Shown here one piece after another: positions 11,231 to 33,408 of a stretch of DNA of 64,000 nt. Source of the stretch: a virus; the IMG/VR virus record IMGVR_UViG_3300008448_000032, positions 1 to 64,000 of that record. One strand, written 5' to 3'. The stretch's first letter is position 1, and the number at the start of each line of letters is the position of its first letter. Position numbers and translations under genes: made by a program. Below the pieces are notes generated by a model that saw nothing but the letters and a program-made list of their open reading frames with translations, did no database searches and had not been told where the DNA came from.

Positions 11231-11361
11231 GCGTTTTAAGCAATTTTATTATTTTTTAATGGATAACTAAGTAAAATCAAGATAGATTGATTAGAAGCAA
11301 AATAAATAAACCTCTTATCGAATAGATTGGAGGTTTTCTTTTTGTATAGGATATATAAAAC

Positions 11362-11781
11362 ATGGAATACGTAAGACTTGGAAATTTTGAGGTTTGGCCA
11401 GATCAATTGAATTGGAGCGTACCCGGAGTCCCCGAGGATTATTTTGGAAATCCCCAGAGCTATTATTTCTTGCTGGATGAATCTTTATTTGAAGAATTTA
11501 TAGCATTAAAGGTAGGACAAGGGTGGAGATTGCCCGATTTAAATGAAATGACTTATATGGGAAATATTTATCATTCTCTGGGAATATCAAAAAGTAAAAA
11601 ATTATATTTTCCTACTGCATACAATTACATAATCCAAGAAACTTTAAATTCGGACTCGGAAAATAAGTATTTCTTCAATCTCGAAAACGGAACTTCTAAT
11701 CCCCAACCTTGGGTTCCCGGATTTTTTCTTTCAAGCGCGGGAAAAAGAACTTTTAAAATCCAGCCGGTTAGAGATGTTTAA
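11362..11781 (+). CDS. DUF1566/Lcl-C (C-type-lectin fold)-like protein
   Basis: GWRLPDLNEM motif and C-terminal PVRD; GATATATA at 11350. Confidence 0.55.
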   Translation: MEYVRLGNFEVWPDQLNWSVPGVPEDYFGNPQSYYFLLDESLFEEFIALKVGQGWRLPDLNEMTYMGNIYHSLGISKSKKLYFPTAYNYIIQETLNSDSENKYFFNLENGTSNPQPWVPGFFLSSAGKRTFKIQPVRDV

Positions 11782-11833
11782 AACGATCTTAATTCTCTCC
11801 GCTATTTTGATATATACAAAAACCCAAAAGGAA

Positions 11834-12616
11834 ATGAAAATTAAAAGATTTAATGATTTTATGTCAGAATCCATTTTTGATAAAGATTTTTTTAGCAGAA
11901 TAGGATCTCTAGTAAAAGATACTGGAACTCCTGGATATTCTTCTTCTAGTACTCAGCATAGCCAAAGTTCTTCAGAACCTTCTATCTCTTCTTCCGTTGA
12001 CAGAACCCCAAGAAGTATGGGACAAAAATCTTCTTTAACCCAAGGAGCTTTAACCGCAAATACAAATAAGAATGCTCCTATGGTGGTTGTTTTCGGGGGA
12101 ACCGACGTCGGAGGAAAAGCTAGCGGAAAATACATGTACGATTATTTTACTCCGGATGTTCTATCTAAGTATAATGTTTTTGTAGCAAATTCGTCGAGGA
12201 TAAACGGCGAAAAAGCTTGGAAAGAAATACAAGAAAAATCGGTAGAACTTGGGCTTAATCCTTCTAAGAAAATACTATATTTGTTTTCGGGGGGATATTT
12301 TCCTGCAATGTCAATAGGAGGAGCCGGATTAGACATGGATAAGAGAATAGACTATCTTAATAATACTTTTGATAAAATATTTTTAGTTGATATATGGATA
12401 GGAAAAAGTGGATCTACTTTCTATAAAAAATTAGCAGAAAAATGTGGAAATAAATTAGAATATTATTCTTATGGCGGAAATAATTCGGGAGGTGGATCTA
12501 ATAATATTCCAGTAAGAAATTTAATAGTCTCTAAAGCTTCTAAATCTCATTTGACTGCTCCTGATCATATGAGGACAAACGATGAAGCCATTAAATCATT
12601 AAAATCCCAATTCTAG
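11834..12616 (+). CDS. Leader-bearing alpha/beta-hydrolase-like protein
   Basis: MKIKRFNDFMSE leader (start 11834, after GATATATA at 11809); Ser-rich linker; VVVFGG, LFSGG nucleophile elbow, FLVD, C-terminal DH. Confidence 0.55.
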   Translation: MKIKRFNDFMSESIFDKDFFSRIGSLVKDTGTPGYSSSSTQHSQSSSEPSISSSVDRTPRSMGQKSSLTQGALTANTNKNAPMVVVFGGTDVGGKASGKYMYDYFTPDVLSKYNVFVANSSRINGEKAWKEIQEKSVELGLNPSKKILYLFSGGYFPAMSIGGAGLDMDKRIDYLNNTFDKIFLVDIWIGKSGSTFYKKLAEKCGNKLEYYSYGGNNSGGGSNNIPVRNLIVSKASKSHLTAPDHMRTNDEAIKSLKSQF

Positions 12617-12618
12617 TT

Positions 12619-13290
12619 TTGAAGATAATAAATTTCCAAGATTATTTTTCGATTAATGAATCTAAGCATTCCTATTTTAGAAGAAAAGCTTTGGATTATT
12701 CTTTCGCGGATCTAGAACCTTTTATAGACAAAGAAACAATGTTAGAACATTACAATGTTCACTATAAGAAATATACTGATCTTTTAAATGAATGCATAGA
12801 CGAAGAATCTATACCGGTTCAAATGGGACCAAATATGGAGGGAATAATATCTATACTTAGAAATGTTGGTAGATACACAGATAAATTAAGAAATAATGCC
12901 GGAGGTTTCTATAATCATTTTTTATATTTTGATCAATTTACCCCAGAATTAAATTCTCCCGGTGGAGAAATAAAAAAATCTATTCTTACCTCTTTTGTTT
13001 CTCTATCTAATCTAAAGAAAGAAATGTTAGAAGCTGGGCTTTCCCAGTTCGGATCGGGATGGGTTTGGCTGATATCGGATTCTTCCGGAAACCTTTACAT
13101 AAAGACAACCCCAAATCAGGACAATCCCTTAATGGAAGAATCTTTTAATGATAAGATTCTATTGGGTATAGATGTTTGGGAACATGCTTACTACCTTAAA
13201 CACAAAGCAGATAGAAAATCTTACCTTAAAGAGGTTTTTAAGGTTATAGATTGGGACAAAGTAAATTCTAGATTTTTATCTTTTAATTAG
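12619..13290 (+). CDS. sod: Fe/Mn superoxide dismutase with capsid-targeting-like leader
   Basis: LEPFID..TMLEHYNVH, NNAGGFYNH, FGSGWVWL, TPNQDNP, DVWEHAYY; extra N-terminal MKIINFQDYFSINE. Confidence 0.93.
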   Translation: MKIINFQDYFSINESKHSYFRRKALDYSFADLEPFIDKETMLEHYNVHYKKYTDLLNECIDEESIPVQMGPNMEGIISILRNVGRYTDKLRNNAGGFYNHFLYFDQFTPELNSPGGEIKKSILTSFVSLSNLKKEMLEAGLSQFGSGWVWLISDSSGNLYIKTTPNQDNPLMEESFNDKILLGIDVWEHAYYLKHKADRKSYLKEVFKVIDWDKVNSRFLSFN

Positions 13291-13574
13291 AAAGGTTTTC
13301 CCTGACTAAATCCGTAGAATACTCCTGGAGTTAATGAGGGTCCCGTAGCCAAAAGTGTTAAATTGAAAACTGTAGGACTTGTTAAGTTTCCTAGAGAGAT
13401 TGTTATTCTATTATTGTTTAGATCGTAATAATCTAAAACTCTTGAATTTCCTTGGGTGACTAATATGGTAGAGATTGGTGCCATTATCGAAGAAGGCCCA
13501 AAAGTAGCTCCTGTAGCTCCCGGAGCATAGTTAGTTGATGCATATAGCGGAAATCCGTAGTTACCTTGTATCAT
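13287..13574 (-). CDS. Small late protein (GATG motif), possibly virion-associated
   Basis: ORF; minus-strand GATATATA at 13588-13595. Confidence 0.55.
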   Translation of the reverse strand: MIQGNYGFPLYASTNYAPGATGATFGPSSIMAPISTILVTQGNSRVLDYYDLNNNRITISLGNLTSPTVFNLTLLATGPSLTPGVFYGFSQGKPF

Positions 13575-13595
13575 AATTTTTTTATTTTATATATC

Positions 13596-13620
13596 AAAAA
13601 AAACCCTGCTTTTGGCAGGG
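13596..13620 (-). terminator. Intrinsic terminator for 13645..14049
   Basis: Minus strand reads CCCTGC-CAAAA-GCAGGG followed by a T run. Confidence 0.7.
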
Positions 13621-13644
13621 TCTATATTAATTAATTTTTTTAGA

Positions 13645-14049
13645 TTATAGGAATCTACTAAACACGTTTCCTTTGGAAATGTACCCAGAAAGATCTTCTA
13701 GAGGAACTTCTTTATCCTCGTTAGTCATTTTATAATCAGTATCCCATGTAGTAACATTAAAAGTTAAAGGGGAAAGAGATTTATCTTTCTCTGTAATTAT
13801 TCTAACAAATCCTCCGTTAGTAAGAGGAATATGACACATGAAAAGACCAGCATCTCCTATTTCTGCAGCATTTCCGGCTTTTTCTGACTCGTTAGCTATA
13901 TCAACAACCCCTTGTATATCGGTATCTTCAAAATCGATAGGACCTTTGTATCTATCGAAAGGCATCCATTGAAATATTCCTTTTTCTAAACTAACAGAAG
14001 ACTCATTCAAGCTCTGAGAAAAACTTTCAAATAATTTTATGTGTTTCAT
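13645..14049 (-). CDS. Hypothetical protein with leader MKHIKLFESFSQSLNE
   Basis: ORF; minus-strand GATATATA at 14074-14081. Confidence 0.6.
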   Translation of the reverse strand: MKHIKLFESFSQSLNESSVSLEKGIFQWMPFDRYKGPIDFEDTDIQGVVDIANESEKAGNAAEIGDAGLFMCHIPLTNGGFVRIITEKDKSLSPLTFNVTTWDTDYKMTNEDKEVPLEDLSGYISKGNVFSRFL

Positions 14050-14105
14050 ATCTAATTTTATTTTTTAACAAACTATATATCTATCTTATATATTTTTTTT
14101 TAGAT

Positions 14106-14861
14106 CTAATCTGAAATTATAGGAATTAGTATCGTTTCTACGAAATTTTTCATATCCTCTATAGATATGTTGTCTAAATCGTCCATTTGGGAATGACATT
14201 TTCCTAACATTTTTATATCTAAAAAACCATTCTCATTTTCTAGAAGGGATTCCCCCTCTAGCAATATAGGGAGAGGATTAATTACGGTAGTGTCTATACC
14301 CATGGCCATTAAGGGAAGACAATCGTTTCCTGGCGTTTTCATGGATGGACAATTAAATTTATTTTTTATGGATTCAGAAAGCTTTCCTGGATAATCGCCT
14401 ATGAAGAAATTGGTTCCTCCTTTTCCTGTAAGCTCTAAGTTTAAAACCCATTCTATCTCTCCGAATTCTCCTTCTATTATTTGTTTCCCCAGCCTCCTGG
14501 ATCCAATAAATCCCACTTCTTCCCCGTCGGTTATCACAACATTGATTTGAGGACATAAAGATTTTAAATATATTGCATTTATAACTGAAGCTGAATTATC
14601 GTTAGCATTATCAGAATCGGGATTTACTATATCGTGATGAGCTATCACCATTTTTTTGCTTTCCCCTCTAAGTATTATATTGAATCCTTTACAATCAAAC
14701 CTTTCGATTTTAAATTCATCTATTTCGTAAGGGATTTTATTTTCTTCCAATAGCGATACGATAAATTCTACCCTTGGAGTTTTTTCTTCCCCGTTAAGGT
14801 AAGCAGGACCTTTATTTCTAGCCTTGCAAAATCTTTCTATAGAATTTAATATATTTTCCAT
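14106..14861 (-). CDS. M28-family Zn peptidase
   Basis: AHHD, ANDNSASV, DGEEVG, VLNLE and late CH metal ligands. Confidence 0.8.
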   Translation of the reverse strand: MENILNSIERFCKARNKGPAYLNGEEKTPRVEFIVSLLEENKIPYEIDEFKIERFDCKGFNIILRGESKKMVIAHHDIVNPDSDNANDNSASVINAIYLKSLCPQINVVITDGEEVGFIGSRRLGKQIIEGEFGEIEWVLNLELTGKGGTNFFIGDYPGKLSESIKNKFNCPSMKTPGNDCLPLMAMGIDTTVINPLPILLEGESLLENENGFLDIKMLGKCHSQMDDLDNISIEDMKNFVETILIPIISD

Positions 14862-14866
14862 TTTAT

Positions 14867-14874
14867 CAAATATA
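14867..14874 (-). promoter_or_regulatory. Bacteroidota sigma70-type -7 element TATATTTG
   Basis: Matches TAnnTTTG; 5 nt before the M28 peptidase ATG. Confidence 0.6.
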
Positions 14875-14940
14875 ATAAAAAATTCGTATTAAAAAAATGT
14901 AATATCTTGGATATATACTTTAACCAATTATAAAATAGCC

Positions 14941-15216
14941 ATGAAAGATTTTTTTATTAAAATGTTATCTTCAGACGGAAAAATTTCTTCTAAAAGATTT
15001 TCCGCATTTTTTACTTTAGTTAATATAATAGTTCTTACTTATATTGCTACTTTTTTATCTAAAGAAAATCAAACCCCAGAATTTATGTTTGATGCACTAG
15101 CTCTTATTGCTGGTGGTGGATTAGGTCTTACCGTAATAGAAAAGATATTTAGCAAAAAGGAAGAACCTAAAAAAGAAACCCAAGAAACCCCAATAGATGA
15201 GGAACCAATCCAATAA
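14941..15216 (+). CDS. Two-TM membrane protein, holin-like
   Basis: SSKRF followed by two hydrophobic helices and a charged tail; GATATATA at 14910. Confidence 0.5.
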   Translation: MKDFFIKMLSSDGKISSKRFSAFFTLVNIIVLTYIATFLSKENQTPEFMFDALALIAGGGLGLTVIEKIFSKKEEPKKETQETPIDEEPIQ

Positions 15217-15448
15217 AATTCTAAGATTAGACGAATATATGATGCAAGAAGGATCTTGCATGAGCGAAAAAGCAAAAGCTTTATTGAAAGAAGCTTGCGA
15301 GGCTTGTTTAATGAAAGAAGCAGAAGAATATGATAAAGACCCTCATGAATCTCATACCTACGAGGGATATATGAATGAATGTTCTTCTTACCTTAGAGAA
15401 ATGATGGGTAATAGAGGGTATTCCGATCTACACAAACACTACAGATAG
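15197..15448 (+). CDS. Small acidic protein with leader-like ILRLDEYMMQE
   Basis: ORF overlapping the upstream stop. Confidence 0.5.
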   Translation: MRNQSNKILRLDEYMMQEGSCMSEKAKALLKEACEACLMKEAEEYDKDPHESHTYEGYMNECSSYLREMMGNRGYSDLHKHYR

Positions 15449-15462
15449 TAGATAATATTTTT

Positions 15463-16659
15463 ATGGTAAATTTAAAATACTTTAAAATTTTCGAAAAAGA
15501 GATTTACCTTAAAGAATCTATTGAAATACAGAATGTTTTAGATAATTCTTTTTCTATAGAAGAATATAAATTAAAATCTTGCGACATAAAATATACAGAA
15601 GCAGGATCTAAAAATTATTGGAATATAAGTGCTCCCACCGAATTTACTAAAAAAATACAAATAGATCAAAAGATAAATTCAATAAAACAAAGAATAGATC
15701 CTATCTTTAAAAGAACAAAAGAATATTACATTAAATATACGGGAAGCCCTTATTTTACAAAAAAAATAAGGGAAAAATCAAGAAAACAAGGTAGAAAATG
15801 GGGTCCAACTAATAAAGCTTCTCTAGATAAATTTATAAATTCAATTTATTATCGTACTTATCCTCCTAACGATTTGCCCGGTTTTTCTCCTCCGGGACTT
15901 TTAGGCTGGGTATCCATGACGGTTTACGATAAAAAAACAAAAAAAGAAGTACCTTCTTATAATCTAATAAACATAAATATAAACGAGTTAACTAATAATT
16001 TTTCAGAGAAAGAAATGTCAGAAGTATTAATCCATGAAATGAGACACTGCATAGATGCATATTTTATCAATCAAGGGTTAGATATAGTTCCGGGAAATGA
16101 TGATTATGCTGCATTACTAGATCTGATAAGACAAGCTGGATGGAGAAAATTAACTCCCGAAGAGGATGAATTTTTAGAAAATTACTTGGGCCGTGGACTT
16201 TCAAAAGAAGAAAGGATGAAAAAATATAAATCCAACGAAATGGAAAATTCTGCAAGATATCAGAGATTGAAATCGGATATGGGAGTTTACGATTTTGGAA
16301 CTTTTGAAAATTTTATTTCTCTTTTAAAGAAAAATTTAACTGCAGAAGATAAAAAATGGAATAAAAAAACTTTAAAATTAGAAAAAATAAAAGATCTTGA
16401 ATTAGTATTTACCGAAGATGGAAAATTAAAAATCCCAACATCTTCTTCGAATCTAGATTTAACGACTACCAAAAGAATTTATTATTACTACGGGAAAAAG
16501 GAAATTAAAGATGATGTAGAAATTCTTTTTTATAATTTTTTAGAAAAAAGTAAAATTAAAAATGAATCTGTAATAAATCTAAAAAAATTATATAACCACT
16601 CTTTACAATTTGCTAAGAATGATTCCAGTAAAGGAGAAAAAGAGGAACAAACCGCTTAA
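15463..16659 (+). CDS. Putative zincin (HExxH) metallopeptidase with leader
   Basis: VLIHEMRHCID plus downstream EMENSAR; leader LKYFKIFE...YLKE. Confidence 0.6.
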   Translation: MVNLKYFKIFEKEIYLKESIEIQNVLDNSFSIEEYKLKSCDIKYTEAGSKNYWNISAPTEFTKKIQIDQKINSIKQRIDPIFKRTKEYYIKYTGSPYFTKKIREKSRKQGRKWGPTNKASLDKFINSIYYRTYPPNDLPGFSPPGLLGWVSMTVYDKKTKKEVPSYNLINININELTNNFSEKEMSEVLIHEMRHCIDAYFINQGLDIVPGNDDYAALLDLIRQAGWRKLTPEEDEFLENYLGRGLSKEERMKKYKSNEMENSARYQRLKSDMGVYDFGTFENFISLLKKNLTAEDKKWNKKTLKLEKIKDLELVFTEDGKLKIPTSSSNLDLTTTKRIYYYYGKKEIKDDVEILFYNFLEKSKIKNESVINLKKLYNHSLQFAKNDSSKGEKEEQTA

Positions 16660-16675
16660 AAAAGAATAGATTTCT

Positions 16676-16822
16676 CTACCCTTGTCCTACATATAATTTT
16701 TTGTAGTTTCTAGATTTTTTAAGCTTAGAGTATTTAGTCTTGGCGTGAATTCCAGGTCTTTTTCTCTTTGATCTCTTTACGAACTGTCTTACAGTATTCG
16801 TTGATGTTTTTTTAGCTGCCAT
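16676..16822 (-). CDS. 48-aa highly basic protein (absent from the ORF track)
   Basis: MAAKKTSTNTVRQFVKRSKRKRPGIHAKTKYSKLKKSRNYKKLYVGQG*; minus-strand GATATATA at 16849-16856. Confidence 0.75.
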   Translation of the reverse strand: MAAKKTSTNTVRQFVKRSKRKRPGIHAKTKYSKLKKSRNYKKLYVGQG

Positions 16823-16948
16823 TTTTCTTTCTTTTTATAATTCAAAATTATATATCAAAAGAAAAATGAAAATTTTATCCCTCTTCTTTGAAGGGTAAGA
16901 TCTAGAGATGGATGAACCTGAGATATCATCCATCCTTCTTCTACTAAT

Positions 16949-17407
16949 TCATCTAATTTTTTCTTGTTCATTTCTTTTCTCCCCTGATTTTCTTTTGTAT
17001 ATCTCATATAGATCCATTTCATTTCCTTCACATTCCGAAATAGATTCTTCCCAGACGTCGAAATCGAAAGCTTCTAAAAGTCCTTTTTTAAGCAGAGATA
17101 TTCTTTTTTGCTCGTATTCTATATGAGATTCTTTTAATTTTTCTATCCTTTTTTGGTATGGTGTCCATCTAGATCTAGACCATTCTTCTAAAGCTTCTCT
17201 TCCTATATAGGGTTTTTGTCTTCTATATTCCTCTACTTCTTCTTCGAACATTCTGATCTCTTCGTTAGACATCTCCCAGTAAGGGCTCGGACTAAAATCT
17301 CCATGCTGAATCTGATGCCAGACTAAAGGATATCCTGACCCTTTAGAAGTTTTTGTTAAAGGGGTAGAAACTTTAACCCCTCTTTTCCACCAATTGAAAA
17401 TTCCCAT
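16949..17407 (-). CDS. Hypothetical protein, likely early
   Basis: ATG 17407 (MGIFNWWK) lies 6 nt after TATATTTG. Confidence 0.55.
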   Translation of the reverse strand: MGIFNWWKRGVKVSTPLTKTSKGSGYPLVWHQIQHGDFSPSPYWEMSNEEIRMFEEEVEEYRRQKPYIGREALEEWSRSRWTPYQKRIEKLKESHIEYEQKRISLLKKGLLEAFDFDVWEESISECEGNEMDLYEIYKRKSGEKRNEQEKIR

Positions 17408-17413
17408 ATAAGA

Positions 17414-17421
17414 CAAATATA
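17414..17421 (-). promoter_or_regulatory. Bacteroidota-type -7 element TATATTTG
   Basis: CAAATATA on the plus strand, directly upstream of a minus-strand gene. Confidence 0.6.
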
Positions 17422-17444
17422 AGGAATAAAATGGAAATAAAAAA

Positions 17445-17867
17445 TTATTTTATAGGACCTCCTGTAACCCATGCATCACAGGTTCTTTTAGCAGCACATT
17501 TAAATTTTAGAAATCTACAATACCCCAATTCTCCTCCTTCCACGACATCCATAGGATCTTCTGATCCCTCGTCATCTCCTATCCCTTTTGCTATACAGTT
17601 AATTGTCTTTTTGGATATGTCAAAAGCTGCACAGTTTCCGCAAAGAGCGTTTTTAGCTTCTTTAACAGTATCTAATTTCCATTCTTCGGCTTTTTCGTCC
17701 CAGAATTTTTTATTTGGCTGGCTAGGATCTAATGGTCCATATCCAAATTCGTCTATAGCTTTTTGCCGATTTTTTAGATTTAGCTTTATATCCTGTGTTG
17801 CTGGGGGACAAGATTTAGCCTCATTTATGATTTCTATAAAACCATTAAATCCCTGTAGATTTTTCAT
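17445..17867 (-). CDS. Cys-rich, probably metal-binding protein with leader
   Basis: MKNLQGFNGFIEIINE; CPPATQD...CGNCAAFD...NCI...GYC..LKFKC...TCDAW. Confidence 0.6.
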   Translation of the reverse strand: MKNLQGFNGFIEIINEAKSCPPATQDIKLNLKNRQKAIDEFGYGPLDPSQPNKKFWDEKAEEWKLDTVKEAKNALCGNCAAFDISKKTINCIAKGIGDDEGSEDPMDVVEGGELGYCRFLKFKCAAKRTCDAWVTGGPIK

Positions 17868-18171
17868 TTTGTATTTGTTTTATTCTTATTCTTACTTGTT
17901 TTTCTATTTCCAATATGTAGGAAAGATCCTCTTCTATTTTGTTCTCGATAACCCATCCTAACCCAGGAAGAACCCTAGATATGTTGGTTTTCATTACCAG
18001 TGTTAAATGGTTACCCTCTGATATCTTATAGTATTTAAATCCTTTTATTTTCGTTACCTCTTCAAAAAATTTATCCAATTGATTTATGAATCTCGTATCT
18101 TCAATAACAAGACCAGGAAAACCTTCTTCTAAAAAAGAAGAGTATTTGATGTTAAATTCTTCTCTTTGCAC
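17845..18171 (-). CDS. Hypothetical protein
   Basis: ORF; minus-strand GATAAATA at 18176-18183, 4 nt before the GTG start. Confidence 0.55.
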   Translation of the reverse strand: MQREEFNIKYSSFLEEGFPGLVIEDTRFINQLDKFFEEVTKIKGFKYYKISEGNHLTLVMKTNISRVLPGLGWVIENKIEEDLSYILEIEKQVRIRIKQIQNEKSTGI

Positions 18172-18203
18172 AAACTATTTATCTTTTTTGTGATATATAA
18201 AAC

Positions 18204-18746
18204 GTGAAAGTTCCAAAAAGATATCTAAGTAAGAATCCCAATGTAATGAAAAGGGAAATTAAGAAGCATGCGGAGAAGAAAGATTCAGATTCTTCTGCCT
18301 ATAAAGAATGGGATGCTGACTATAAGAGTAGAAAAGCGGGTAAAGGGAAACCGGTTAAAACCACCGTAAGTAAATACACTAAAAAATATAAAGAAATGTA
18401 CGGGGAAAGTGAATCTCAATCTAAATTAAAATCCATAATGGATTATGAATCTTTTTCTAATTCACTTAATGAAGGATCCCGAAAAGGATCCGTCGACACT
18501 AAAGGATCACCTGCAGATAAATCACTTAGAAAAAAAGCTGAAAAATCTGGATTTCCACTAGGTATATTAAAAGAAGTCTTCAAGCGCGGAAAGGCCGCAT
18601 GGAAGACCGGACACGTTCCCGGGACGACCCCGGATCAGTGGGCACACGCAAGGGTTTCGAGCTTTATTACAGGGGGGAAAACGACTAAAATGCAGGATAA
18701 GGCTCTATATCAACAAGCCAAAAAAGCAAGAGCTGCTAAAAAATAA
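18204..18746 (+). CDS. Basic viral protein (possibly DUF5824-like) with internal leader-like motif
   Basis: LRKKAEKSG..LGILKEVFKRGKAAWKTGH.PGTTPDQWAHARVSSF is a domain I recognise from large viruses; internal IMDYESFSNSLNE; GATATATA at 18192. Confidence 0.55.
   Translation: MKVPKRYLSKNPNVMKREIKKHAEKKDSDSSAYKEWDADYKSRKAGKGKPVKTTVSKYTKKYKEMYGESESQSKLKSIMDYESFSNSLNEGSRKGSVDTKGSPADKSLRKKAEKSGFPLGILKEVFKRGKAAWKTGHVPGTTPDQWAHARVSSFITGGKTTKMQDKALYQQAKKARAAKK
18696..18746 (+). repeat. Copy 1 of 51-bp diverged direct repeat (3' end of 18204..18746)
   Basis: Encodes DKALYQQAKKARAAKK*; 43/51 identical to 19762-19812. Confidence 0.85.
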
Positions 18747-18791
18747 ATAATAAATGAAATAAACGAATTAACCCGTGATATATATTATATT

Positions 18792-19727
18792 ATGGTGGGG
18801 GTAATTTACAGGATAACAAATTTATTAAATTCAAAGATCTATATAGGATCAGATACAAAAAACGGGGGAAAGGGAGATCCTTCATATATGGGATCCGGTA
18901 TTTTAATAAAAAAAGCAATCGAAAAATACGGGATTGCTAATTTTAAAAAAGAGATTCTTTTTCAATGTAGTTCATCGGATGAACTAAAAACAAAAGAAAC
19001 CGAATGTATTAGAGAGAATCGATCTTTTGACCGATCTATAGGATATAATATTTCCGACGGATACTGGGGAGGAAATACATTAACTAATCATCCCGATATA
19101 GAAAAAATTAAGAAAAAAATTTCTAATAATACGATTATTAATTCTTTTAAAATTACCGAGGGAAGAAAAAAATTTTATCTAAATGAAACCTCGGAAGAAA
19201 GAGAGAAAAGAATAAATAATATTAAAAAAGGAATGGAAAAAGCAGACAAGAGTTTTTTTCATAGTGATGTTTACGGAAAAAATCTTTCGGAAGGAATTAA
19301 AAATTCGGAAAAATTTCAGGATTATAATAAAAAAAGATCAGGATCTAAGAGAGGGAAATATTCAGTAAACTGGGATTCCTATGCAGAAAAAAGAAAAGAA
19401 GAAATATCTAAGATAAGTTCGGAAAAATTAAAGTGTGTTTTGGAGGGATTAGTAGATAAAGATCATTCAACATTTTTCTGCTATTTAAAAGTATATCTTC
19501 ATTTGGAGGATAAGGAAAAAATAGAAGGCCTTGATGATTTTATAGGATATTTAGAGGAAAATTTATATTCTTCAAATGTAAATCACATAGACATAAGAAA
19601 AAAATATAAAGAGATCGGATTGGAAAATAAAAAATTAGGAAAATCCACGACTGTTTTAAAAAGTCTTTATTCTTTTCAGATTAAAAATTATCCTAATATA
19701 ATAATTAATCCAGTTAAAAGGTTTTAA
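18792..19727 (+). mobile_element. Free-standing GIY-YIG (Seg-like) homing endonuclease gene
   Basis: GVIYRITN...KIYIGS, YMGSG..IKKAIEKYG..NFKKEIL, E..CI, GYNI; flanked by a duplicated gene end. Confidence 0.85.
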
Positions 19728-20373: not shown

Positions 20374-22086
20374 TTATTTTGCTGCTATAAGAGAATCTAT
20401 TTTAGTAATATTTTCGTCTTTGTATTCGATAGCAGAAAGAAGTTTTTTGTATTGGTCTTCTGGTATATTAAAGGACTTCCCTTTTTGCTTCAAGGCTATA
20501 AACCCCTCTATTTCTTTAATTATAGAAAGAGTAGTTTCTTTTATTTCCTCCATATCTTTCTTAGTGTAATCTCCTTCCACAACATAATCAAAAACCTCCC
20601 ATGCACTTACTGTGTACATTCCACTTAACTTAAATTCTTTAAGGAAATCTGAAGTAGGAATGCCTCTCTCTTCTCTAACTATAAACGAAACTATTCCTGA
20701 AACTTGATCCCATTGATCTGGAGAAACTACGCCATTGAATATTCCTTGTTTTATGTTTATTAAACTCTTTATTAGAGAATTAGGGGTTAAAGATTTACTT
20801 TCTCTATAAAATTTCTCCAAAGAAAGTTTTATGGTTACCTCTTCATCAAATTTATCTATAATTTCTTGGATGAGTTCTTGTGGGTATTCAAGTTGTTTTA
20901 AGAATGCTGCATAATTTATTCCCGATCTATGGAAATCCCTATCTGATCCTGTATTGGTCTTCCAAGCACAGTTTTTAACAACCCCGTCTTTTTTGATAGT
21001 TACTCCTAAAAGGTATTTTTTGTTTGCTTTAGGCAGATTTCCGTTTATTATATTTAATTGAATAGATCCATCGCCGTAGCTCCAGAAAGTAGAATCATTA
21101 TTTATACAGAAATTAGTGTCCCCAGAAACTGCTCTTTGTGCTTCTGGAGTTCTAGCCGACATGGCTAAATACCCTTTTTTGTTATAGAAAATACCGGCTC
21201 TAAGTCCTAGAGCTACTATTTTTTCTGTGTATTCATCTAACCCAAGATTCCAATTATCTACTAAATCAGAAGAATCCCTGACCAGAGTTTTAAAAGCTAC
21301 TTTAGGGTCCTTGAATTGAGGATATGCTTTTAAATTATCCGGCGTATCCGAATATTTCATCCCTGTAGTTTTTTTCCACTCTTTAAAAGGATATTCAGTT
21401 TCTCCCGTTTCGGGGTTTACCCTGGGTTTTAATTTTTCTAGAGATAGAGCTATTAATTCTAATTCCTCTATTAATTTTTTATCCGAAGGATCTTTAGAAG
21501 AAGAAGCTTTCTTAAATTCTTCTTTCATTCTAGGTATAAAATCGTCGTAGATTTTTTTAAGCTTTCTTTTGGATTGCATTGCTCTAAGATCATCCCCTAA
21601 TACCTCATATGCTGGGCTTTCGTCTTCCTTAGAAGGAATTATCCTAGCATAAGCATCTACATTTTTTAAAGGAAGTTCATTTAGGCTTGGCTTCAATTCA
21701 ACCATCATATTATAGATACCAGTAGGACTACCTACCGTGGCACTTTCTGGATCCATTTCTACGGATACCAACTCTTCCCAAGGGCATCCATCTATAACAT
21801 ATAATTTTGTAAGAAGGTATATCCATCCTTCATTCTTAGGTAATTTTTTAGATCCCCCCGGTTTACTCGAGGGATGAAGTTCTCCATTTTCGTGGTACTT
21901 CCCTTCTTTGGCAAGGTCCAAAATTTGCTGGTACCTTGGATCTCTCCATATGCTCTTTTTGATCTCTTCTGGAATCTCGTTTACATTCTTTTTTTGTTTT
22001 TCTGCATAATCCTTTACCAATAAAGCTTTTGCTGCAGCTATGTTTTCTAGTATTAAAGATGATTTTTGTAGTTCGTAAAAGTCCAT
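20374..22086 (-). CDS. 570-aa hypothetical late protein
   Basis: Long ORF; leader ending LILE; SARTPEAQRAVSGDTNFCI motif; promoter at 22108-22115. Confidence 0.6.
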   Translation of the reverse strand: MDFYELQKSSLILENIAAAKALLVKDYAEKQKKNVNEIPEEIKKSIWRDPRYQQILDLAKEGKYHENGELHPSSKPGGSKKLPKNEGWIYLLTKLYVIDGCPWEELVSVEMDPESATVGSPTGIYNMMVELKPSLNELPLKNVDAYARIIPSKEDESPAYEVLGDDLRAMQSKRKLKKIYDDFIPRMKEEFKKASSSKDPSDKKLIEELELIALSLEKLKPRVNPETGETEYPFKEWKKTTGMKYSDTPDNLKAYPQFKDPKVAFKTLVRDSSDLVDNWNLGLDEYTEKIVALGLRAGIFYNKKGYLAMSARTPEAQRAVSGDTNFCINNDSTFWSYGDGSIQLNIINGNLPKANKKYLLGVTIKKDGVVKNCAWKTNTGSDRDFHRSGINYAAFLKQLEYPQELIQEIIDKFDEEVTIKLSLEKFYRESKSLTPNSLIKSLINIKQGIFNGVVSPDQWDQVSGIVSFIVREERGIPTSDFLKEFKLSGMYTVSAWEVFDYVVEGDYTKKDMEEIKETTLSIIKEIEGFIALKQKGKSFNIPEDQYKKLLSAIEYKDENITKIDSLIAAK

Positions 22087-22100: not shown

Positions 22101-22120
22101 TTTTTGATATATATCAAAAA
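22101..22120. promoter_or_regulatory. Palindromic bidirectional late promoter
   Basis: Perfect 20-bp palindrome TTTTTGATATATATCAAAAA carries GATATATA on both strands between divergent genes. Confidence 0.75.
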
Positions 22121-22134: not shown

Positions 22135-22419
22135 ATGAAAATTTACAACTCGATAAATGAGTTTTTGGCAAATTCTCCAAAACCAGGGGTAAGACCCGAA
22201 ATAAAACCAGGGGTAACTCCAGGTACTAAACCTAAATACCCATCTCCTATAAGAAGAGATAAGCCTTCAGTTGTACCGGATAAAAAGGCAGAAATAGAAG
22301 TTCTAACGGTTAAGGCTACCGAAGAAGATTTAGTGGAAAGATTTATCTCTGAATTAAGAGAGCAAGATAAAGAAGTGGAAATTGCATTTTCTGCTATGAA
22401 AAAAAGATACTCTAAATAA
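22135..22419 (+). CDS. Small Pro-rich protein with leader MKIYNSINE
   Basis: PKPGVRPEIKPGVTPGTKP repeats. Confidence 0.55.
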   Translation: MKIYNSINEFLANSPKPGVRPEIKPGVTPGTKPKYPSPIRRDKPSVVPDKKAEIEVLTVKATEEDLVERFISELREQDKEVEIAFSAMKKRYSK

Positions 22420-26279: not shown

Positions 26280-26328
26280 CGGTATTTATCGTAGAAAAAA
26301 AATTTCCGGTAAAAAAATTTAAAAAAAA

Positions 26329-26356: not shown

Positions 26357-26361
26357 GGTCG

Positions 26362-27816: not shown

Positions 27817-27861
27817 GCAGAAAAAGATATATAAAACATATTAACCTTAAAACTAATAAAA

Positions 27862-28023: not shown

Positions 28024-28043
28024 GAACCTTCCCTATTCGTCAT

Positions 28044-28069
28044 CCCCAGGAGAAATTCTGGGGTTTTTT
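28044..28069 (+). terminator. Intrinsic terminator after putative holin
   Basis: CCCCAGGA-GAAA-TTCTGGGG then TTTTTT. Confidence 0.8.
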
Positions 28070-28087
28070 GTGATATATAAAAATAAA

Positions 28088-28735: not shown

Positions 28736-28766
28736 GATATATAAATTAAAATCTAAATTTATAATT

Positions 28767-29375: not shown

Positions 29376-29379
29376 TAAA

Positions 29380-30786: not shown

Positions 30787-30799
30787 TTTAAAAATTAAA

Positions 30800-31696
30800 A
30801 TGAAAAAAATAAAACTATTCGAAAACTATTCTTTAGAGAATTATGAAAGAGAGATAGAAGAATCTATTTATGAAAAATGGTCTTCTAGAAATGGGGATTC
30901 TTTATATCTATTAGAATCCATGGGTTCTGAAGAGGAAGATAGGCTGGATTGGCTTGATGATGAGGAATTAACACCGGGAGAAATGAGAGCTTTGGAGAGA
31001 GATCTTCAAGTTATTTCTAAAGAGCAACTAGCTGCTTTGTATCTAAAAGCTTTAGGACAATATGAATTCGGGGATCCAGAAAGAATGAAAGGAAGAAGAT
31101 CTAAATCAGAGGTTGTTCAAGAAGACGTATATGTAACTGGAATCCCAGGAATAGAAGAATTTTGCTCTGAAGACTGGAAAAGCGGAAATCTATTTATTGG
31201 TCCTAGTGCTCTTTCTGATGCGATAGGACTGAGATCTTTGGGTACTGTAACAAGAACAGTTAATAAATTTAGACTTCTTTTAGACGGAGAATCAGAGGGA
31301 AGATATGACGAGGTGGTTTACCCTAAAGTTATAAATGCGTTTGATTTTTTCAAAGGAAAATCTCCAGAAGTTATACAGGGAATAGCTGCAGGGGGAATAC
31401 AAAATCCAGAAACTTCTAAAGAGCACAGATCTGTTCTTAAAGGATCTGGTATTTCTAAAGCTGATTCTCTAATAATAGGAAAATTGGTTCATTCTCTTTT
31501 TAAAGATTATATGTCTAATTCTTTTTTCAGGAAGAATGTTTGTAAAGCTCAAAGCTCTGCTATATCTTCTATTTCCAAATCTAAAAGAATATCTCCTGAA
31601 GAGCTGGAAACATCATATAAAAATTATCTAATATCTCAAAAAATGTTAGATAAATTCAATTGGTGCGGACTTTATTCTAAATATGGGATCTACTAA
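30800..31696 (+). CDS. Hypothetical protein with leader MKKIKLFENY
   Basis: Start reassigned to ATG 30800. Confidence 0.55.
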   Translation: MKKIKLFENYSLENYEREIEESIYEKWSSRNGDSLYLLESMGSEEEDRLDWLDDEELTPGEMRALERDLQVISKEQLAALYLKALGQYEFGDPERMKGRRSKSEVVQEDVYVTGIPGIEEFCSEDWKSGNLFIGPSALSDAIGLRSLGTVTRTVNKFRLLLDGESEGRYDEVVYPKVINAFDFFKGKSPEVIQGIAAGGIQNPETSKEHRSVLKGSGISKADSLIIGKLVHSLFKDYMSNSFFRKNVCKAQSSAISSISKSKRISPEELETSYKNYLISQKMLDKFNWCGLYSKYGIY

Positions 31697-32175
31697 AAAT
31701 TAAAATTTCCTAGAAAAAGAAGAAAGGAAATTACCAAAAGAAATTCATAATGTCTTTTTATGTAAATCTTAGGGTTTATACAATCAACATAATTTATTCT
31801 TTCATAGAAATAATCACATCTATCTCTATCTGATAAAGAAAATTCCATATTTGATTTTTCTAAAAATTCTGAATTTTGTTTAGATTCCCATTCGTAAAAC
31901 ACCTCAGCTTCCATACACATATCCAATACGGTTTCCCGAGTAAGAATTACCCTCTTGTGTTCTGCAATTATTAAAAGGGGAATAAAAAATCCTAGGAAAT
32001 AAGTATTATAATAAAATTCTATTCCAGCAGATACTAGGATTAGAAAAGAGTAGAGACCTAAACTAGATTTCTTACCCGTAAATAATATAGGAAAAATTCT
32101 AAACATTTTAGAGGTCTCGGGACATTCCCGATATAAAGATCTGTAGAATTTTTCTGATTTCGATTCTTTTTCCAT
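31693..32175 (-). CDS. Membrane protein, likely early
   Basis: ATG 32175 (MEKESK); hydrophobic segments; TATATTTG upstream. Confidence 0.5.
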   Translation of the reverse strand: MEKESKSEKFYRSLYRECPETSKMFRIFPILFTGKKSSLGLYSFLILVSAGIEFYYNTYFLGFFIPLLIIAEHKRVILTRETVLDMCMEAEVFYEWESKQNSEFLEKSNMEFSLSDRDRCDYFYERINYVDCINPKIYIKRHYEFLLVISFLLFLGNFNF

Positions 32176-32198
32176 TTTAAAATAATTGATATATAAAT

Positions 32199-32206
32199 CA
32201 AATATA
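32199..32206 (-). promoter_or_regulatory. Bacteroidota-type -7 element TATATTTG
   Basis: Adjacent to the plus-strand GATATATA at 32188. Confidence 0.5.
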
Positions 32207-32210
32207 AGAA

Positions 32211-32606
32211 ATGTCTCGTATAATAAAAATCGGCCATATAGAAGCATTAATAGATTATCCGGAAGATGTCGTAAATACTCATTGGGATCTAGCAGAAGAA
32301 AAGATAAAGAATAATTACGGAAAAGGATGGAGACTTCCTACAGTGGAAGAACTCCTTTATATAAAAGATTTATCCCTGGAGTTCGGTATTTTTTCAGATT
32401 TCAATGTCGACGATGATTATTGGACATCTAAATCCGGAGAGCCTGGTTATATTCCAGATCGTAATGAGTTCGGCGAAGATTTTAGATGGTTCTATCAGGT
32501 GAGAATGCCCAATAATAAAGATCTCCAGGGTTTCGAGGATTCCCAGAAAGAATTTCTTTGTCACGTAGATTATTACGGAAATATTTTACCGGTAAGAGAT
32601 ATATAA
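32211..32606 (+). CDS. DUF1566/Lcl-C-like protein
   Basis: GKGWRLPTVEELLYI...YWTS...ILPVRDI. Confidence 0.65.
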   Translation: MSRIIKIGHIEALIDYPEDVVNTHWDLAEEKIKNNYGKGWRLPTVEELLYIKDLSLEFGIFSDFNVDDDYWTSKSGEPGYIPDRNEFGEDFRWFYQVRMPNNKDLQGFEDSQKEFLCHVDYYGNILPVRDI

Positions 32607-32616
32607 AATAAAAACT

Positions 32617-33408
32617 ATGAAAACTATTAAAAATTTTAACGAATTTGTATCCGAATCTATTTTAGATTCACCTATTTTCCAAAAAATTGGATCACTTGTT
32701 AAATCCACCCTGAATAGATCGGTAAATACTACTGAATATGAAAATGAGGTGGAAAAAGGAGATGCTGCAGAACCCGGAGGAGTTATGGGAGAATCCCCTA
32801 TAGGAAGAGGAACTTCATTAGAATCCGATATGAAATTTACCAAAGAAGAGATGGAAACCTTTGGAGAAAAAATAGGAATAACCGATAAAGGAGACAAGGC
32901 AAAATTGGAACAGCCCTCCACCGGTCCTATAGGAAATATATCAAATTCTGCGTATGCTAACCTAAATGTTTCTACAAGAGGAATCCCGGGTACGGATGGT
33001 GGAAATCTTGGATGTGCTGCTGCGACTTCTATAATGTTCTATCGGGCAACTGGATATTCCTTAGCCGGGGGAACGACGGTTTGTATAGGAACTCTTACCA
33101 TATATGACGAATTGGATAAGAAAAGTAAAGAACCTTTATCTCCTTGGAAAAAGGTAACAGATTGGAAAAATGATTACATGCCTGGTGATATTATCGTTAC
33201 TAGAAGAAGATCCAGACCTGGACATATCGGGGTAGTGGTTAATGATGGAAATATAATTTCAAATTCTTCATCTGGATTTAAAGGAGATAAAATGGGACAA
33301 ATAGAAGAAAATTACACTATAAAATCCTGGGATAGCGTAGCTAGAAGAAATCCTACGGAAACCGCAATATTTAGATACCAAGGTCCTTACAAGAACAGCT
33401 GGTCTTAA
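32617..33408 (+). CDS. Leader-bearing NlpC/P60-CHAP-like Cys/His amidase
   Basis: MKTIKNFNEFVSE; GNLGCAAATS...PGDIIV...GHIGVV...IISNSS. Confidence 0.65.
   Translation: MKTIKNFNEFVSESILDSPIFQKIGSLVKSTLNRSVNTTEYENEVEKGDAAEPGGVMGESPIGRGTSLESDMKFTKEEMETFGEKIGITDKGDKAKLEQPSTGPIGNISNSAYANLNVSTRGIPGTDGGNLGCAAATSIMFYRATGYSLAGGTTVCIGTLTIYDELDKKSKEPLSPWKKVTDWKNDYMPGDIIVTRRRSRPGHIGVVVNDGNIISNSSSGFKGDKMGQIEENYTIKSWDSVARRNPTETAIFRYQGPYKNSWS

What the first reader, a model, noticed from the sequence alone, without database searches (positions are those of the whole stretch)
11350..33408. Duplicated cassette: DUF1566-like gene plus shared extended leader with a swapped enzyme domain
Seen: loci 11350-12616 and 32188-33408 have the same layout: GATATATA, DUF1566-like gene ending PVRD(V/I)*, GATATATA, then a protein starting MKIKRFNDFMSESIFDKDFFSRIGSLVK or MKTIKNFNEFVSESILDSPIFQKIGSLVK. 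Similarity extends about 15 aa past the predicted cleavage Glu, followed by a low-complexity linker and then unrelated catalytic domains (alpha/beta hydrolase versus NlpC/P60-like amidase). Inference: a polymorphic effector architecture with a constant delivery N-terminus and variable C-terminus, where the small lectin-fold neighbour may be a chaperone, adaptor or inhibitor.
Basis: partly seen in the sequence, partly recalled or inferred. Interest (0 to 1): 0.72.

Follow-up and report, generated by a model that had tools for sequence, protein, structure and literature searches.

The report
Shared address tag on phage wall-cutting enzymes
Two unrelated cell-wall-cutting enzymes of a giant phage carry the same 30-residue N-terminal tag, which in related phages sits on at least five kinds of such enzymes, while the small lectin-like neighbour gene is a frequent but dispensable companion.

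Summary
Both loci read GATATATA, DUF1566-like gene, GATATATA, leader protein, and the two leader proteins (e1 11834-12616, e2 32617-33408) share only their first 28-30 residues.

It is not a recent duplication. DNA similarity is limited to 87 nt at 70%, identical codons are no more frequent than codon usage predicts, and GATATATA is a general promoter-like motif (26 sites in the window).

The record is a 32%-complete fragment of a jumbo myophage, probably of Bacteroidota. e1 is an alpha/beta-hydrolase and e2 a CHAP/NlpC-P60 cysteine peptidase.

In a sister clade e1 and e2 are adjacent genes and carry a clade-specific version of the same tag. That tag also sits on GH19-like, GDSL and Amidase_2 enzymes and on one unknown domain.

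Best reading: a T4-like capsid-targeting propeptide plus a second segment specific to wall hydrolases, kept alike within each genome by selection.

The DUF1566/Lcl_C-like genes form a dispersed multi-copy family. They are adjacent to 6 of 20 tag-bearing genes and absent near e1/e2 in some genomes, so an obligate chaperone or immunity role is not supported.

Earlier notes of this scan on this same genome had already flagged the leader and the promoter. None came from other DNA.

The parts
11350..11357 (+). GATATATA promoter-like motif 4 nt before the d1 start
   Evidence: It is one of 26 window sites (7.6 expected by chance).
11362..11781 (+). d1: DUF1566/Lcl_C-like small protein (139 aa) with no leader
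   Evidence: Paralog of d2 and d4. Ortholog in L037 at 56% identity. Member of alignment A3, in which 15 of 20 members hit Pfam Lcl_C at E<=0.01. d1 alone had no Pfam hit.
11809..11816 (+). GATATATA promoter-like motif 17 nt before the e1 start
11834..11869 (+). e1 residues 1-12: general leader (MKIKRFNDFMSE), a putative capsid-targeting propeptide ending in M-S-E
   Evidence: The same pattern occurs on about 18 window proteins. E12 is invariant in A4.
11870..11917 (+). e1 residues 13-28: hydrolase-specific extension (SIFDKDFFSRIGSLVK)
   Evidence: Shared only with e2 in this contig. Clade-specific versions sit on other hydrolases in relatives.
11918..12010 (+). e1 residues 29-59: Ser/Thr/Pro-rich linker
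   Evidence: Sequence. Blocks 1-60 of the AF2 model average pLDDT 39-47, and 56 residues in 1-59 are below 50.
12011..12616 (+). e1 residues 60-260 plus stop: alpha/beta-hydrolase domain with invariant Ser152, Asp186, His245
   Evidence: AF2 block means 85-98 for all but one block (65 at residues 91-100). Foldseek gives esterases at E about 1e-4. VIA gives Z 11.8, rmsd 3.2, 174 aligned to 7z2u. Invariant columns in 26 sequences. Homologs carry PG_binding_1 or VanY.
32188..32195 (+). GATATATA promoter-like motif 15 nt before the d2 start
32211..32606 (+). d2: DUF1566/Lcl_C-like small protein (131 aa)
   Evidence: Pfam Lcl_C E 2.2e-4, below the curated cut-off. AF2 pLDDT 69.6. Top Foldseek hit is the Legionella Lcl C-terminal domain 8q4e at E 8e-3, followed by C-type lectin-like chains.
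32598..32605 (+). GATATATA promoter-like motif inside d2's last codons and stop, 11 nt before the e2 start
32617..32655 (+). e2 residues 1-13: general leader (MKTIKNFNEFVSE)
32656..32703 (+). e2 residues 14-29: hydrolase-specific extension (SILDSPIFQKIGSLVK)
32704..32859 (+). e2 residues 30-81: variable linker
   Evidence: Poorly conserved and gapped columns in A1.
32860..33408 (+). e2 residues 82-263 plus stop: CHAP/NlpC-P60-type cysteine peptidase domain with invariant Cys133 and His203
   Evidence: for the invariant columns. Pfam NLPC_P60 and CHAP below cut-off. phrog_1015 'tail protein with lysin activity' at 6.7e-5. Homologs carry precomputed PF05257 and JGI names 'NlpC family hydrolase'.
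33408..33785 (+). d3: DUF1566/Lcl_C-like paralog (125 aa), directly after e2
   Evidence: 81% identical to its ortholog in L004.
33782..34105 (+). d4: DUF1566/Lcl_C-like paralog (107 aa)
   Evidence: 79% identical to its ortholog in L004.

Best explanation
The window belongs to a fragment of a jumbo T4-like myophage, probably infecting Bacteroidota.

e1 is an alpha/beta-hydrolase-fold serine hydrolase and e2 is a CHAP/NlpC-P60 cysteine peptidase. They are two members of a set of three to five cell-wall-hydrolase genes per genome that all carry the same two-part N-terminal tag.

Part 1 (about 12 residues, ending [LIVM]-x-E) is the phage's general leader, found on about 18 unrelated proteins in the window. 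I infer that it acts like the T4 capsid-targeting sequence: it brings the protein into the prohead core and is cut off after the Glu by a gp21-type prohead protease.

Part 2 (about 16 residues just after that Glu) is found only on the hydrolases. I infer that it is a second address or docking peptide recognised by one common partner in each phage. Candidates are a site in the prohead core or portal that places these enzymes to leave early, or simply a longer propeptide.

The enzymes would then leave with the DNA and open the wall at entry. A late promoter-like GATATATA precedes each gene.

The DUF1566/Lcl_C-like genes are a dispersed family of small C-type-lectin-like proteins. They tend to lie in the same accessory regions but are not required partners.

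Shown here: domain identities, distribution of the tag, its clade-specific co-variation, the absence of recent gene conversion, and the gene orders.
Inferred: packaging, cleavage, ejection and the role of part 2.
For: 1. Phage type.
- The record is an IMG/VR virus record, 86.9 kb and 32% complete.
- It has a baseplate wedge, phrog_219 at 1.5e-29.
- The best tblastn relatives of that protein are huge uncultured phages, Prevotella Lak phages, and Tenacibaculum, Chryseobacterium and Flavobacterium phages.

2. Enzymes.
- e1 has the alpha/beta-hydrolase fold.
- Ser152, Asp186 and His245 are invariant in 26 sequences. They sit after strand 146-151, after strand 181-185 and at the start of helix 245-259.
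- e1-domain homologs carry PG_binding_1 or VanY.
- e2 has invariant Cys133 and His203 and CHAP annotated on homologs.

3. The pair is old.
- In 8 of 9 sister-clade records e1 lies directly upstream of e2.
- Both carry MKHLKSIxEF..NEQLF plus an extension, and other leader proteins in the same loci lack it.

4. The tag sits on other hydrolase folds.
- GH19-like: P0232 with phrog_181 at 1.5e-26 and PDB 4ok7 at 7e-10, plus L067 and L068.
- GDSL: L064:3063-4385, PF13472 at 7.9e-14.
- Amidase_2: L065:2888-3976, PF01510 at 2.6e-11.
- One unknown domain kept at 61-80% identity across both clades.

5. The tag co-varies within genomes.
- The 32-aa score for e1 against e2 in the same genome averages 73. 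Orthologs compared between clades score 18.6 (e1) and 28 (e2).
- In the window, e1-e2 scores 89, against 48 and 67 to their orthologs in the nearest relative.

6. The similarity is kept at protein level. Of 30 aligned residues 20 are identical, and 11 of those use the same codon, against 10.9 expected from codon usage.

7. A T4-type prohead protease (Peptidase_S77, above the cut-off) is present in 3 of 5 relatives' records.

8. Literature (passages read).
- T4 internal proteins are diverse and share only a 10-19-residue capsid-targeting propeptide.
- That propeptide is removed by gp21, which cuts after Glu (PMC3012670; PMC9026906; PMC5694885).
- SPN3US ejection-protein paralogs gp53 and gp54 share identical N-terminal 15 residues.
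Against: - No virion data exist for this phage. Packaging, cleavage and ejection are all inferred.
- No prohead protease was found in the window's own record, which is a 32% fragment, nor in 2 of 5 relatives' records.
- A third wall hydrolase in the window (35259-36323, Hydrolase_2) has the general leader but not part 2. Part 2 is therefore not needed by every wall enzyme.
- Part 2 is not a clear amphipathic helix: only 3 of 20 segments beat shuffles at p<0.02. AF2 leaves it disordered.
- Late promoters and wall hydrolases would fit a lysis role equally well.
- The resemblance of part 1 to the T4 sequence itself is recalled, not tested by alignment here.
Confidence: 0.55

Rival explanations
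1. The tag-bearing enzymes are polymorphic effectors, and the adjacent DUF1566-like lectin-fold protein is their dedicated chaperone, adaptor or inhibitor.
For: - In the window and its two collinear relatives, every d copy found lies next to e1 or e2: 4 of 4 in G000 and G001, and 3 of 3 in G002.
- Both d clusters of G001 are adjacent to a tag gene, P about 0.006 against random placement.
- One independent case exists in the sister clade: a d gene directly after a tag gene at L069:2822-3106.
- In three sister-clade records 4 of 10 d clusters lie within 5 kb of a tag gene, P about 0.03.
- d1 and d2 are as diverged from their orthologs (56%, 60%) as e1 and e2 (60%, 64%). d3 and d4 (81%, 79%) and flanking genes (80-98%) are not.
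Against: - Only 6 of 20 tag-bearing genes in six records have an adjacent d gene.
- In 8 of 9 sister-clade records e1 and e2 are adjacent to each other. The nearest d is 1.7-4.4 kb upstream in 6 of 9, behind other genes, some on the other strand.
- In G005 and G006 the nearest d is about 14-18 kb away, and the 55-kb G010 fragment has none detected, yet e1/e2 keep the tag.
- Other d copies are scattered far from any tag gene.
- The distance thresholds of the permutation test were chosen after seeing the data, and the null ignores genome modules.
- The enzymes lack a signal peptide, so the producing cell needs no immunity protein (inference).
Confidence: 0.15
2. e1, e2 and the other tag-bearing enzymes are the phage's end-of-cycle lysis enzymes. 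The shared N-terminus is then a regulatory, tethering or export element rather than a head-packaging signal.
For: - The catalytic domains match endolysin families: phrog_181, phrog_1794 and CHAP.
- Each gene has its own late-type promoter-like motif.
- No separate endolysin was identified in the fragment.
Against: - Part 1 of the tag is the same leader that sits on about 18 unrelated proteins, including a superoxide dismutase. That fits a general sorting signal better than lysis control.
- Several complementary hydrolases per genome is unusual for a phage of a Gram-negative host (from general knowledge).
- The N-terminus is not hydrophobic enough for a signal-anchor (sequence).
Confidence: 0.2
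3. The shared N-terminus is only a relic of an old partial duplication, or of exon-like shuffling, and has no function of its own beyond the general leader.
For: e1 and e2 are adjacent in the sister clade, which is the arrangement a tandem partial duplication would leave.
Against: - The segment is conserved on at least five unrelated catalytic domains.
- It changes in step across all of them between clades, while the catalytic domains stay 50-80% identical.
- It shows no excess of shared codons. Selection on the peptide is the simplest account.
Confidence: 0.05

Closest known systems
Phage T4 internal proteins (IPI-III, Alt) with the capsid-targeting sequence, and the variable internal-protein loci of T-even phages
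   Same: A short N-terminal propeptide ending in Glu is shared by otherwise unrelated proteins. The cargo set varies between related phages. A gp21-type protease is present in relatives.
   Different: Here a second, hydrolase-specific segment follows the cleavage Glu. The cargo would be wall hydrolases, whereas the T4 internal proteins described in the passages I read are anti-restriction or DNA-associated proteins. Nothing here is experimentally shown.
Giant phage SPN3US / phiKZ ejection-protein paralogs with shared propeptides (gp53 and gp54)
   Same: Paralogous head or ejection proteins have identical N-terminal residues that contain protease motifs cut after Glu. Long propeptides carry several cleavage sites (passages of PMC5694885).
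   Different: Those proteins are paralogs over their whole length. Here the C-terminal domains are unrelated folds. The motif there is A/S-x-E, while here it is [LIVM]-x-E.
Polymorphic toxin / effector-immunity systems (for example T6SS amidase effectors with immunity genes), recalled from general knowledge
   Same: A constant N-terminal delivery part with swapped catalytic C-termini. One of the catalytic domains belongs to the NlpC/P60 superfamily.
   Different: No secretion system is present. The small neighbour lies upstream rather than downstream, and it is missing next to 14 of 20 tag genes. The context is a phage.
Lcl C-terminal domain / DUF1566 (PF07603), a C-type-lectin-like fold also known as a target of diversity-generating retroelements
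   Same: The d proteins hit PF07603 (15 of 20 members at E<=0.01). The d2 model's top structural match is Lcl 8q4e. The papers listed (listing and abstracts only) deal with DGRs and hold the term DUF1566; that it is a DGR target domain is recalled.
   Different: The window copies are stand-alone 107-139-aa proteins that score below Pfam's cut-off. No reverse transcriptase and no template repeat is present in the record.
Virion-associated peptidoglycan hydrolases such as the T7 gp16 internal core protein (recalled)
   Same: A wall-cutting enzyme carried inside the particle and released at infection.
   Different: Those are domains of large structural proteins. Here the enzymes are small, separate and carry a detachable address tag. 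In more distant relatives the e2 domain does sit in 500-1070-aa proteins.

Membership tests
T4-type capsid-targeted internal head proteins | Short N-terminal propeptide shared by unrelated proteins | tested here: met
   About 18 window proteins share the pattern. The literature gives 10-19 residues.
T4-type capsid-targeted internal head proteins | Cleavage after Glu by the prohead protease | not testable with these tools
   The motif [LIVM]-x-E is present and the Glu is invariant in 20 of 20 tag sequences. Cleavage itself needs mass spectrometry.
T4-type capsid-targeted internal head proteins | The phage encodes a gp21-type prohead protease (Peptidase_S77) | tested here: inconclusive
   Above the cut-off in 3 of 5 relatives' records. 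None found in the window's own 32% fragment.
T4-type capsid-targeted internal head proteins | Protein present inside the mature head and ejected | not testable with these tools
   No isolate or virion proteome is available.
Polymorphic effector with cognate immunity or chaperone gene | Constant N-terminus with variable C-terminal catalytic domains | tested here: met
   At least five unrelated hydrolase domains carry the tag.
Polymorphic effector with cognate immunity or chaperone gene | A dedicated partner gene next to each effector gene | tested here: not met
   A d gene is adjacent to 6 of 20 tag genes. e1-e2 occur without a nearby d in G005, G006 and G010.
DUF1566 / Lcl_C (PF07603) | Match to the Pfam model | tested here: inconclusive
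   d2 scores 21.9 bits and d3 17.6 bits against a cut-off of 34.9, and d1 and d4 give no hit. 15 of 20 family members match at E<=0.01, best 1.6e-9.
DUF1566 / Lcl_C (PF07603) | C-type-lectin-like fold | tested here: met
   The d2 model has pLDDT 69.6. The top hit is Lcl 8q4e (E 8e-3, TM 0.45), followed by many C-type lectin-like chains at TM 0.5-0.57. This is moderate confidence.
NlpC/P60-CHAP cysteine peptidases (e2) | Conserved catalytic Cys and His | tested here: met
   Cys133 and His203 are invariant in 19 sequences.
NlpC/P60-CHAP cysteine peptidases (e2) | Match to the Pfam model | tested here: inconclusive
   The window's e2 scores below the cut-offs: NLPC_P60 16.9 against 23, CHAP 15.5 against 26. 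Many homologs carry precomputed PF05257.
Alpha/beta-hydrolase fold serine hydrolases (e1) | Fold, with Ser-Asp-His at the canonical positions | tested here: met
   VIA Z 11.8, rmsd 3.2, 174 aligned. Foldseek gives 51 hits at E<=1e-3. Ser152, Asp186 and His245 are invariant and sit after strands 146-151 and 181-185 and at helix 245. Catalysis itself was not tested.
Diversity-generating-retroelement target | Reverse transcriptase and a template repeat near the lectin-fold gene | tested here: not met
   No RVT_1 match in the record. No repeat of any d gene in the contig. The record is a fragment.

The most novel reading that the evidence does not exclude
These jumbo phages use a two-tier address code. 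A general T4-like capsid-targeting propeptide is carried by all cargo. A second short peptide, kept after cleavage, is carried only by wall hydrolases and routes them to a distinct place, for example the portal or tail channel, so that they exit first into the periplasm. That second peptide co-evolves with one phage-encoded receptor. The DUF1566 lectin-like proteins that recur beside these genes could be that receptor, or a glycan-binding helper.
Probability: 0.25. Interest if true: 0.75.

Novelty: new variant of a known kind. Interest (0 to 1): 0.55.

Why it matters
If the reading is right, it gives a simple sequence rule for which proteins a group of uncultured giant phages packs and delivers. 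It also points to a second sorting step that separates wall-cutting enzymes from other cargo.

A second sorting step of this kind is not mentioned for T4 or phiKZ-like phages in the passages I read. No paper in the searched library holds both 'capsid targeting sequence' and 'endolysin'.

The tag would be a ready handle for finding virion-borne lysins in metagenomes, and for loading foreign enzymes into such phages. The clade-specific co-variation of the tag offers a clean test for its receptor.

Tried and rejected
- Recent duplication or gene conversion: rejected. Only 87 nt at 70% are shared, and identical codons number 11 against 10.9 expected.
- GATATATA as a cassette mark: rejected, because it is a general motif.
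- Amphipathic helix for the extension: not supported. The hydrophobic moment exceeds shuffles at p<0.02 in only 3 of 20 segments.
- DGR target: no reverse transcriptase and no template repeat.
- Complex prediction of e2 (alignment A1) with d2 (alignment A3): no verdict, score 0.01 against a mark of 0.32. This counts neither for nor against binding.
- Single-sequence search for related loci for e2 and e1 found no relatives.
- tblastn of e2 and e1 against GenBank phages found nothing.
- blastn of 11000-18900 found only two weak hits to huge uncultured phages.
I replaced it with the profile search.
- PDB sequence searches with the A1 and A2 profiles gave no hit.
- An ESM Atlas look-up of the unknown tag-bearing domain gave no usable hit.
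- Pfam gave nothing for P0232, P0237 and P0239. The SGNH reading of P0239 rests on my eye only.
- Peptidase_S77 was not found in the own record.
- The window protein 3398-4288 looked by eye as if it had a weak version of the extension. The A4 profile does not find it at E<=0.1.
Supplementary files were not asked for.

Full report
**What is there.** The window is the first 64 kb of a single 86.9-kb IMG/VR virus record. Its GC is 33% and CheckV rates it 32% complete. It encodes a T4-type baseplate wedge (phrog_219, 1.5e-29), a Dda-like helicase and an asparagine synthase. The wedge protein's best tblastn relatives are huge uncultured phages, Prevotella Lak phages, and Tenacibaculum, Chryseobacterium and Flavobacterium phages. 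I read it as a piece of a jumbo myophage of Bacteroidota. The host is inferred.

**The observation.** Both loci are as described.
- Locus 1: GATATATA (11350), d1 (11362-11781, ...PVRDV*), GATATATA (11809), e1 (11834-12616).
- Locus 2: GATATATA (32188), d2 (32211-32606, ...PVRDI*), GATATATA (32598, inside d2's last codons and stop), e2 (32617-33408). Two further paralogs follow, d3 (33408-33785) and d4 (33782-34105).
- e1 and e2 resemble each other only in their first 28-30 residues: 64% over 28 aa.
- Among 18 leader-bearing N-termini of the window, which I chose by regex and by eye, the e1-e2 pair scores 92. The other 152 pairs have mean 23.4, sd 6.8 and maximum 47. The extension past the leader Glu is therefore real and specific to this pair within the contig. 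A profile of the tag finds only these two in the record.

**What is not special to the loci.**
- GATATATA occurs 26 times in the window, against 7.6 +/- 2.8 in shuffles.
- In the whole contig, 24 of 28 sites are followed within 70 nt by an ATG that opens at least 60 codons. It is a general promoter-like motif.
- The two loci share no DNA similarity beyond 87 nt of the leader at 70%.
- Of 20 identical residues in the aligned tags, 11 use the same codon, against 10.9 expected from codon usage.
- 'Duplicated cassette' is therefore wrong in the sense of a recent copy. The likeness is held at the protein level.

**The proteins.**
- e1: the AlphaFold model is confident from residue 60 on, with block means of 85-98 in all but one block. 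It has the alpha/beta-hydrolase fold: Foldseek gives 51 hits at E<=1e-3, all listed ones alpha/beta-fold hydrolases, mostly esterases, lipases and dipeptidyl peptidases. VIA gives Z 11.8, rmsd 3.2 and 174 aligned residues.
- Ser152, Asp186 and His245 are invariant in 26 sequences and sit where the triad of this fold sits.
- Homologs of the e1 domain are fused to PG_binding_1 or VanY domains, which points to the cell wall as substrate.
- e2: 103 homologs were found. Cys133 and His203 are invariant. Many homologs carry CHAP (PF05257) or are named NlpC-family hydrolase by JGI. The window copy itself scores below Pfam's cut-offs and hits phrog_1015, 'tail protein with lysin activity'.
- d1-d4: 15 of 20 family members hit Pfam Lcl_C/DUF1566 at E<=0.01. 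The d2 model (pLDDT 69.6) matches the Legionella Lcl C-terminal domain first and C-type lectin-like chains next. They have no leader.

**Relatives.** The search for related loci with alignments of e2 and e1 homologs gave 36 and 24 loci.
- Clade A consists of the window, L001, and L004 with L037 on one 98.7-kb record. It is collinear with the window and keeps d-e1 and d-e2-d-d.
- Clade B consists of nine records. In 8 of 9, e1 lies directly upstream of e2. L023 lacks e1.
- In clade B both proteins start MKHLKSIxEF..NEQLF followed by a similar stretch. Other leader proteins in the same loci lack NEQLF.
- The shared extended N-terminus is therefore an old property of this enzyme pair, not a feature of the window's two loci.

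**The tag is modular.** I built a 34-residue profile from 20 e1 and e2 N-termini (A4) and searched 1.84 billion representatives with it. It gave 18 hits at E<=1e-3. Besides e1- and e2-type proteins and short fragments, these include:
- P0232, P0229 and P0236, a GH19-like endolysin domain. P0232 hits phrog_181 at 1.5e-26 and PDB 4ok7 at 7e-10.
- P0237 and P0228, an unknown domain.
- P0239, which looks SGNH-like by eye but has no Pfam hit.

Searching five relatives' records with the same profile and reading the places showed further tag-bearing genes:
- G001: a 221-aa unknown protein and a 440-aa GDSL hydrolase (PF13472, 7.9e-14).
- G002: a 236-aa unknown protein, a 362-aa Amidase_2 (PF01510, 2.6e-11) and a 228-aa protein.
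- G003 and G006: GH19-like enzymes (phrog_181, 5e-19 and 1.5e-26). G003 also has the unknown domain.
- G004: two more.
- The unknown domain is 61-80% identical across both clades.

At least five unrelated hydrolase folds carry the tag. Three of them (GH19-like, Amidase_2 and CHAP/NlpC-P60) are recognised wall-hydrolase families.

**Co-variation.**
- The tag type follows the phage clade, not the enzyme. Clade A reads roughly ...E-[SG]-[IF]-[FL]-D......G-S-[LVI], and clade B reads ...NEQLF......F-x-K-L.
- Scores over 32 residues: e1 against e2 in the same genome averages 73. Orthologs compared across clades score 18.6 (e1) and 28 (e2).
- In the window e1-e2 scores 89, higher than either protein against its ortholog in the nearest relative (48 and 67). 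Within clade B, orthologs are somewhat more alike (84.5 and 101) than paralogs (73).
- Together with the codon result, this says that the tags of one genome are kept alike by selection. That is what a common binding partner would produce.

**How it most likely works.**
- Part 1 of the tag matches what is described for T4. Internal proteins are diverse and share only a 10-19-residue capsid-targeting propeptide that brings them into the prohead core. The gp21 protease removes it by cutting after Glu (passages of PMC3012670, PMC9026906 and PMC5694885).
- The resemblance to the T4 sequence itself is recalled.
- The Glu is invariant in all 20 tags. The residues before it are [LIVMA]-x-E in most.
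- A Peptidase_S77 gene above the cut-off is present in 3 of 5 relatives' records, but not in the window's fragment.
- I therefore take e1 and e2 to be head-packaged wall hydrolases that leave with the DNA.
- Part 2 would be either a second address retained after cleavage or a longer propeptide. SPN3US gives a precedent for paralogs with identical N-terminal propeptide residues and several cleavage sites.
- All of this paragraph beyond the sequence facts is inference.

**The lectin-like neighbour.**
- In six records, 6 of 20 tag-bearing genes have an adjacent d gene. These are e1 and e2 in G000 and in G001, e2 in G002, and one gene in G004.
- In clade B the nearest d gene lies 1.7-4.4 kb upstream of e1/e2 in 6 of 9 records, with other genes between them, some on the other strand.
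- In G005 and G006 the nearest d is about 14-18 kb away. G010 (55 kb) has none.
- Other d copies are scattered.
- A placement test gives P about 0.006 for adjacency in G001. For three clade B records it gives P 0.29 for adjacency (1 of 10 clusters) and P about 0.03 for 'within 5 kb' (4 of 10). The thresholds were chosen after seeing the data, and the null is crude.
- There is a regional association and a recurrent adjacency, but the enzymes keep their tag without a d neighbour. An obligate chaperone, adaptor or immunity role is therefore not supported. A looser functional tie remains possible.
- d1 and d2 are as diverged from their orthologs (56%, 60%) as e1 and e2 (60%, 64%). d3, d4 and most flanking genes are at 79-98%.

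**Comparison and novelty.** The system works like the T4 capsid-targeting scheme, and like the polymorphic internal-protein loci of T-even phages. It differs in two ways: the second, enzyme-class-specific segment, and the cargo being wall hydrolases. It fails the partner-gene criterion of polymorphic toxin-immunity systems. No paper in the searched library holds both 'capsid targeting sequence' and 'endolysin'. A search for peptidoglycan hydrolase, ejection proteins, propeptide and jumbo phage gave only the two SPN3US papers, and neither mentions peptidoglycan hydrolase. I rate it a new variant of a known kind.

**Limits.**
- All records are fragments of uncultured phages.
- The list of 18 leader proteins was hand-picked.

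Noticed in passing
window 11774-11833: The e1 reading frame is open for 20 more codons upstream (MFKTILILSAILIYTKTQKE). It starts at an ATG that overlaps d1's stop, and it contains the GATATATA motif. Similar hydrophobic in-frame extensions appear in several e1 homologs of both clades but not in the nearest relative L037. It may be just the translation of a T-rich promoter region, or it may be a second, membrane-anchored long form.
   Followed up: partly
window 9682-33408 versus L037 and L004: Divergence from the collinear relative is very uneven. Several leader proteins (29380: 32%, 30752: 37%, 9682: 44%, e1: 60%, e2: 64%) and d1 and d2 (56%, 60%) are far more diverged than neighbours such as the superoxide dismutase (92%) or the methyltransferase at 34164-35171 (98.5%). 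This fits fast evolution of delivered proteins.
   Followed up: partly
window 35259-36323: A third wall hydrolase (Pfam Hydrolase_2, 1.8e-6, above the cut-off, plus endolysin PHROGs) carries the general leader but not the e1/e2 extension.
   Followed up: partly
window 12619-13290: An Fe/Mn superoxide dismutase with the general leader lies directly after e1. It was already noted by the first stage.
   Followed up: no
window 22106-22115: GATATATATC reads as GATATATA on both strands and sits between the divergent genes 20374-22086 (-) and 22135-22419 (+). One palindromic site may serve both directions.
   Followed up: no
L012:5947-8349, L016:5923-7617, L038:4542-5789: In more distant phages the same catalytic domains are fused: the e2 (CHAP) domain plus a GH19-like domain in one 564-800-aa protein. 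In L038-L041 a GH19-like enzyme with a leader-like start lies directly upstream of an e1-type gene.
   Followed up: partly
L064:2394-3059, L065:2172-2882, L066:1846-2490, L069:2161-2829: A tag-bearing protein of about 215-235 aa has a C-terminal domain that is 61-80% identical across both clades. It has no Pfam, PHROG or Atlas match. It is a conserved unknown member of the hydrolase set.
   Followed up: partly
L070:1618-2493 (G004): This clade B record holds a tag-bearing 291-aa protein whose extension (…NEGILSSIFGGIGSLF…) looks like the clade A type rather than the NEQLF type. That would complicate the simple clade rule.
   Followed up: no
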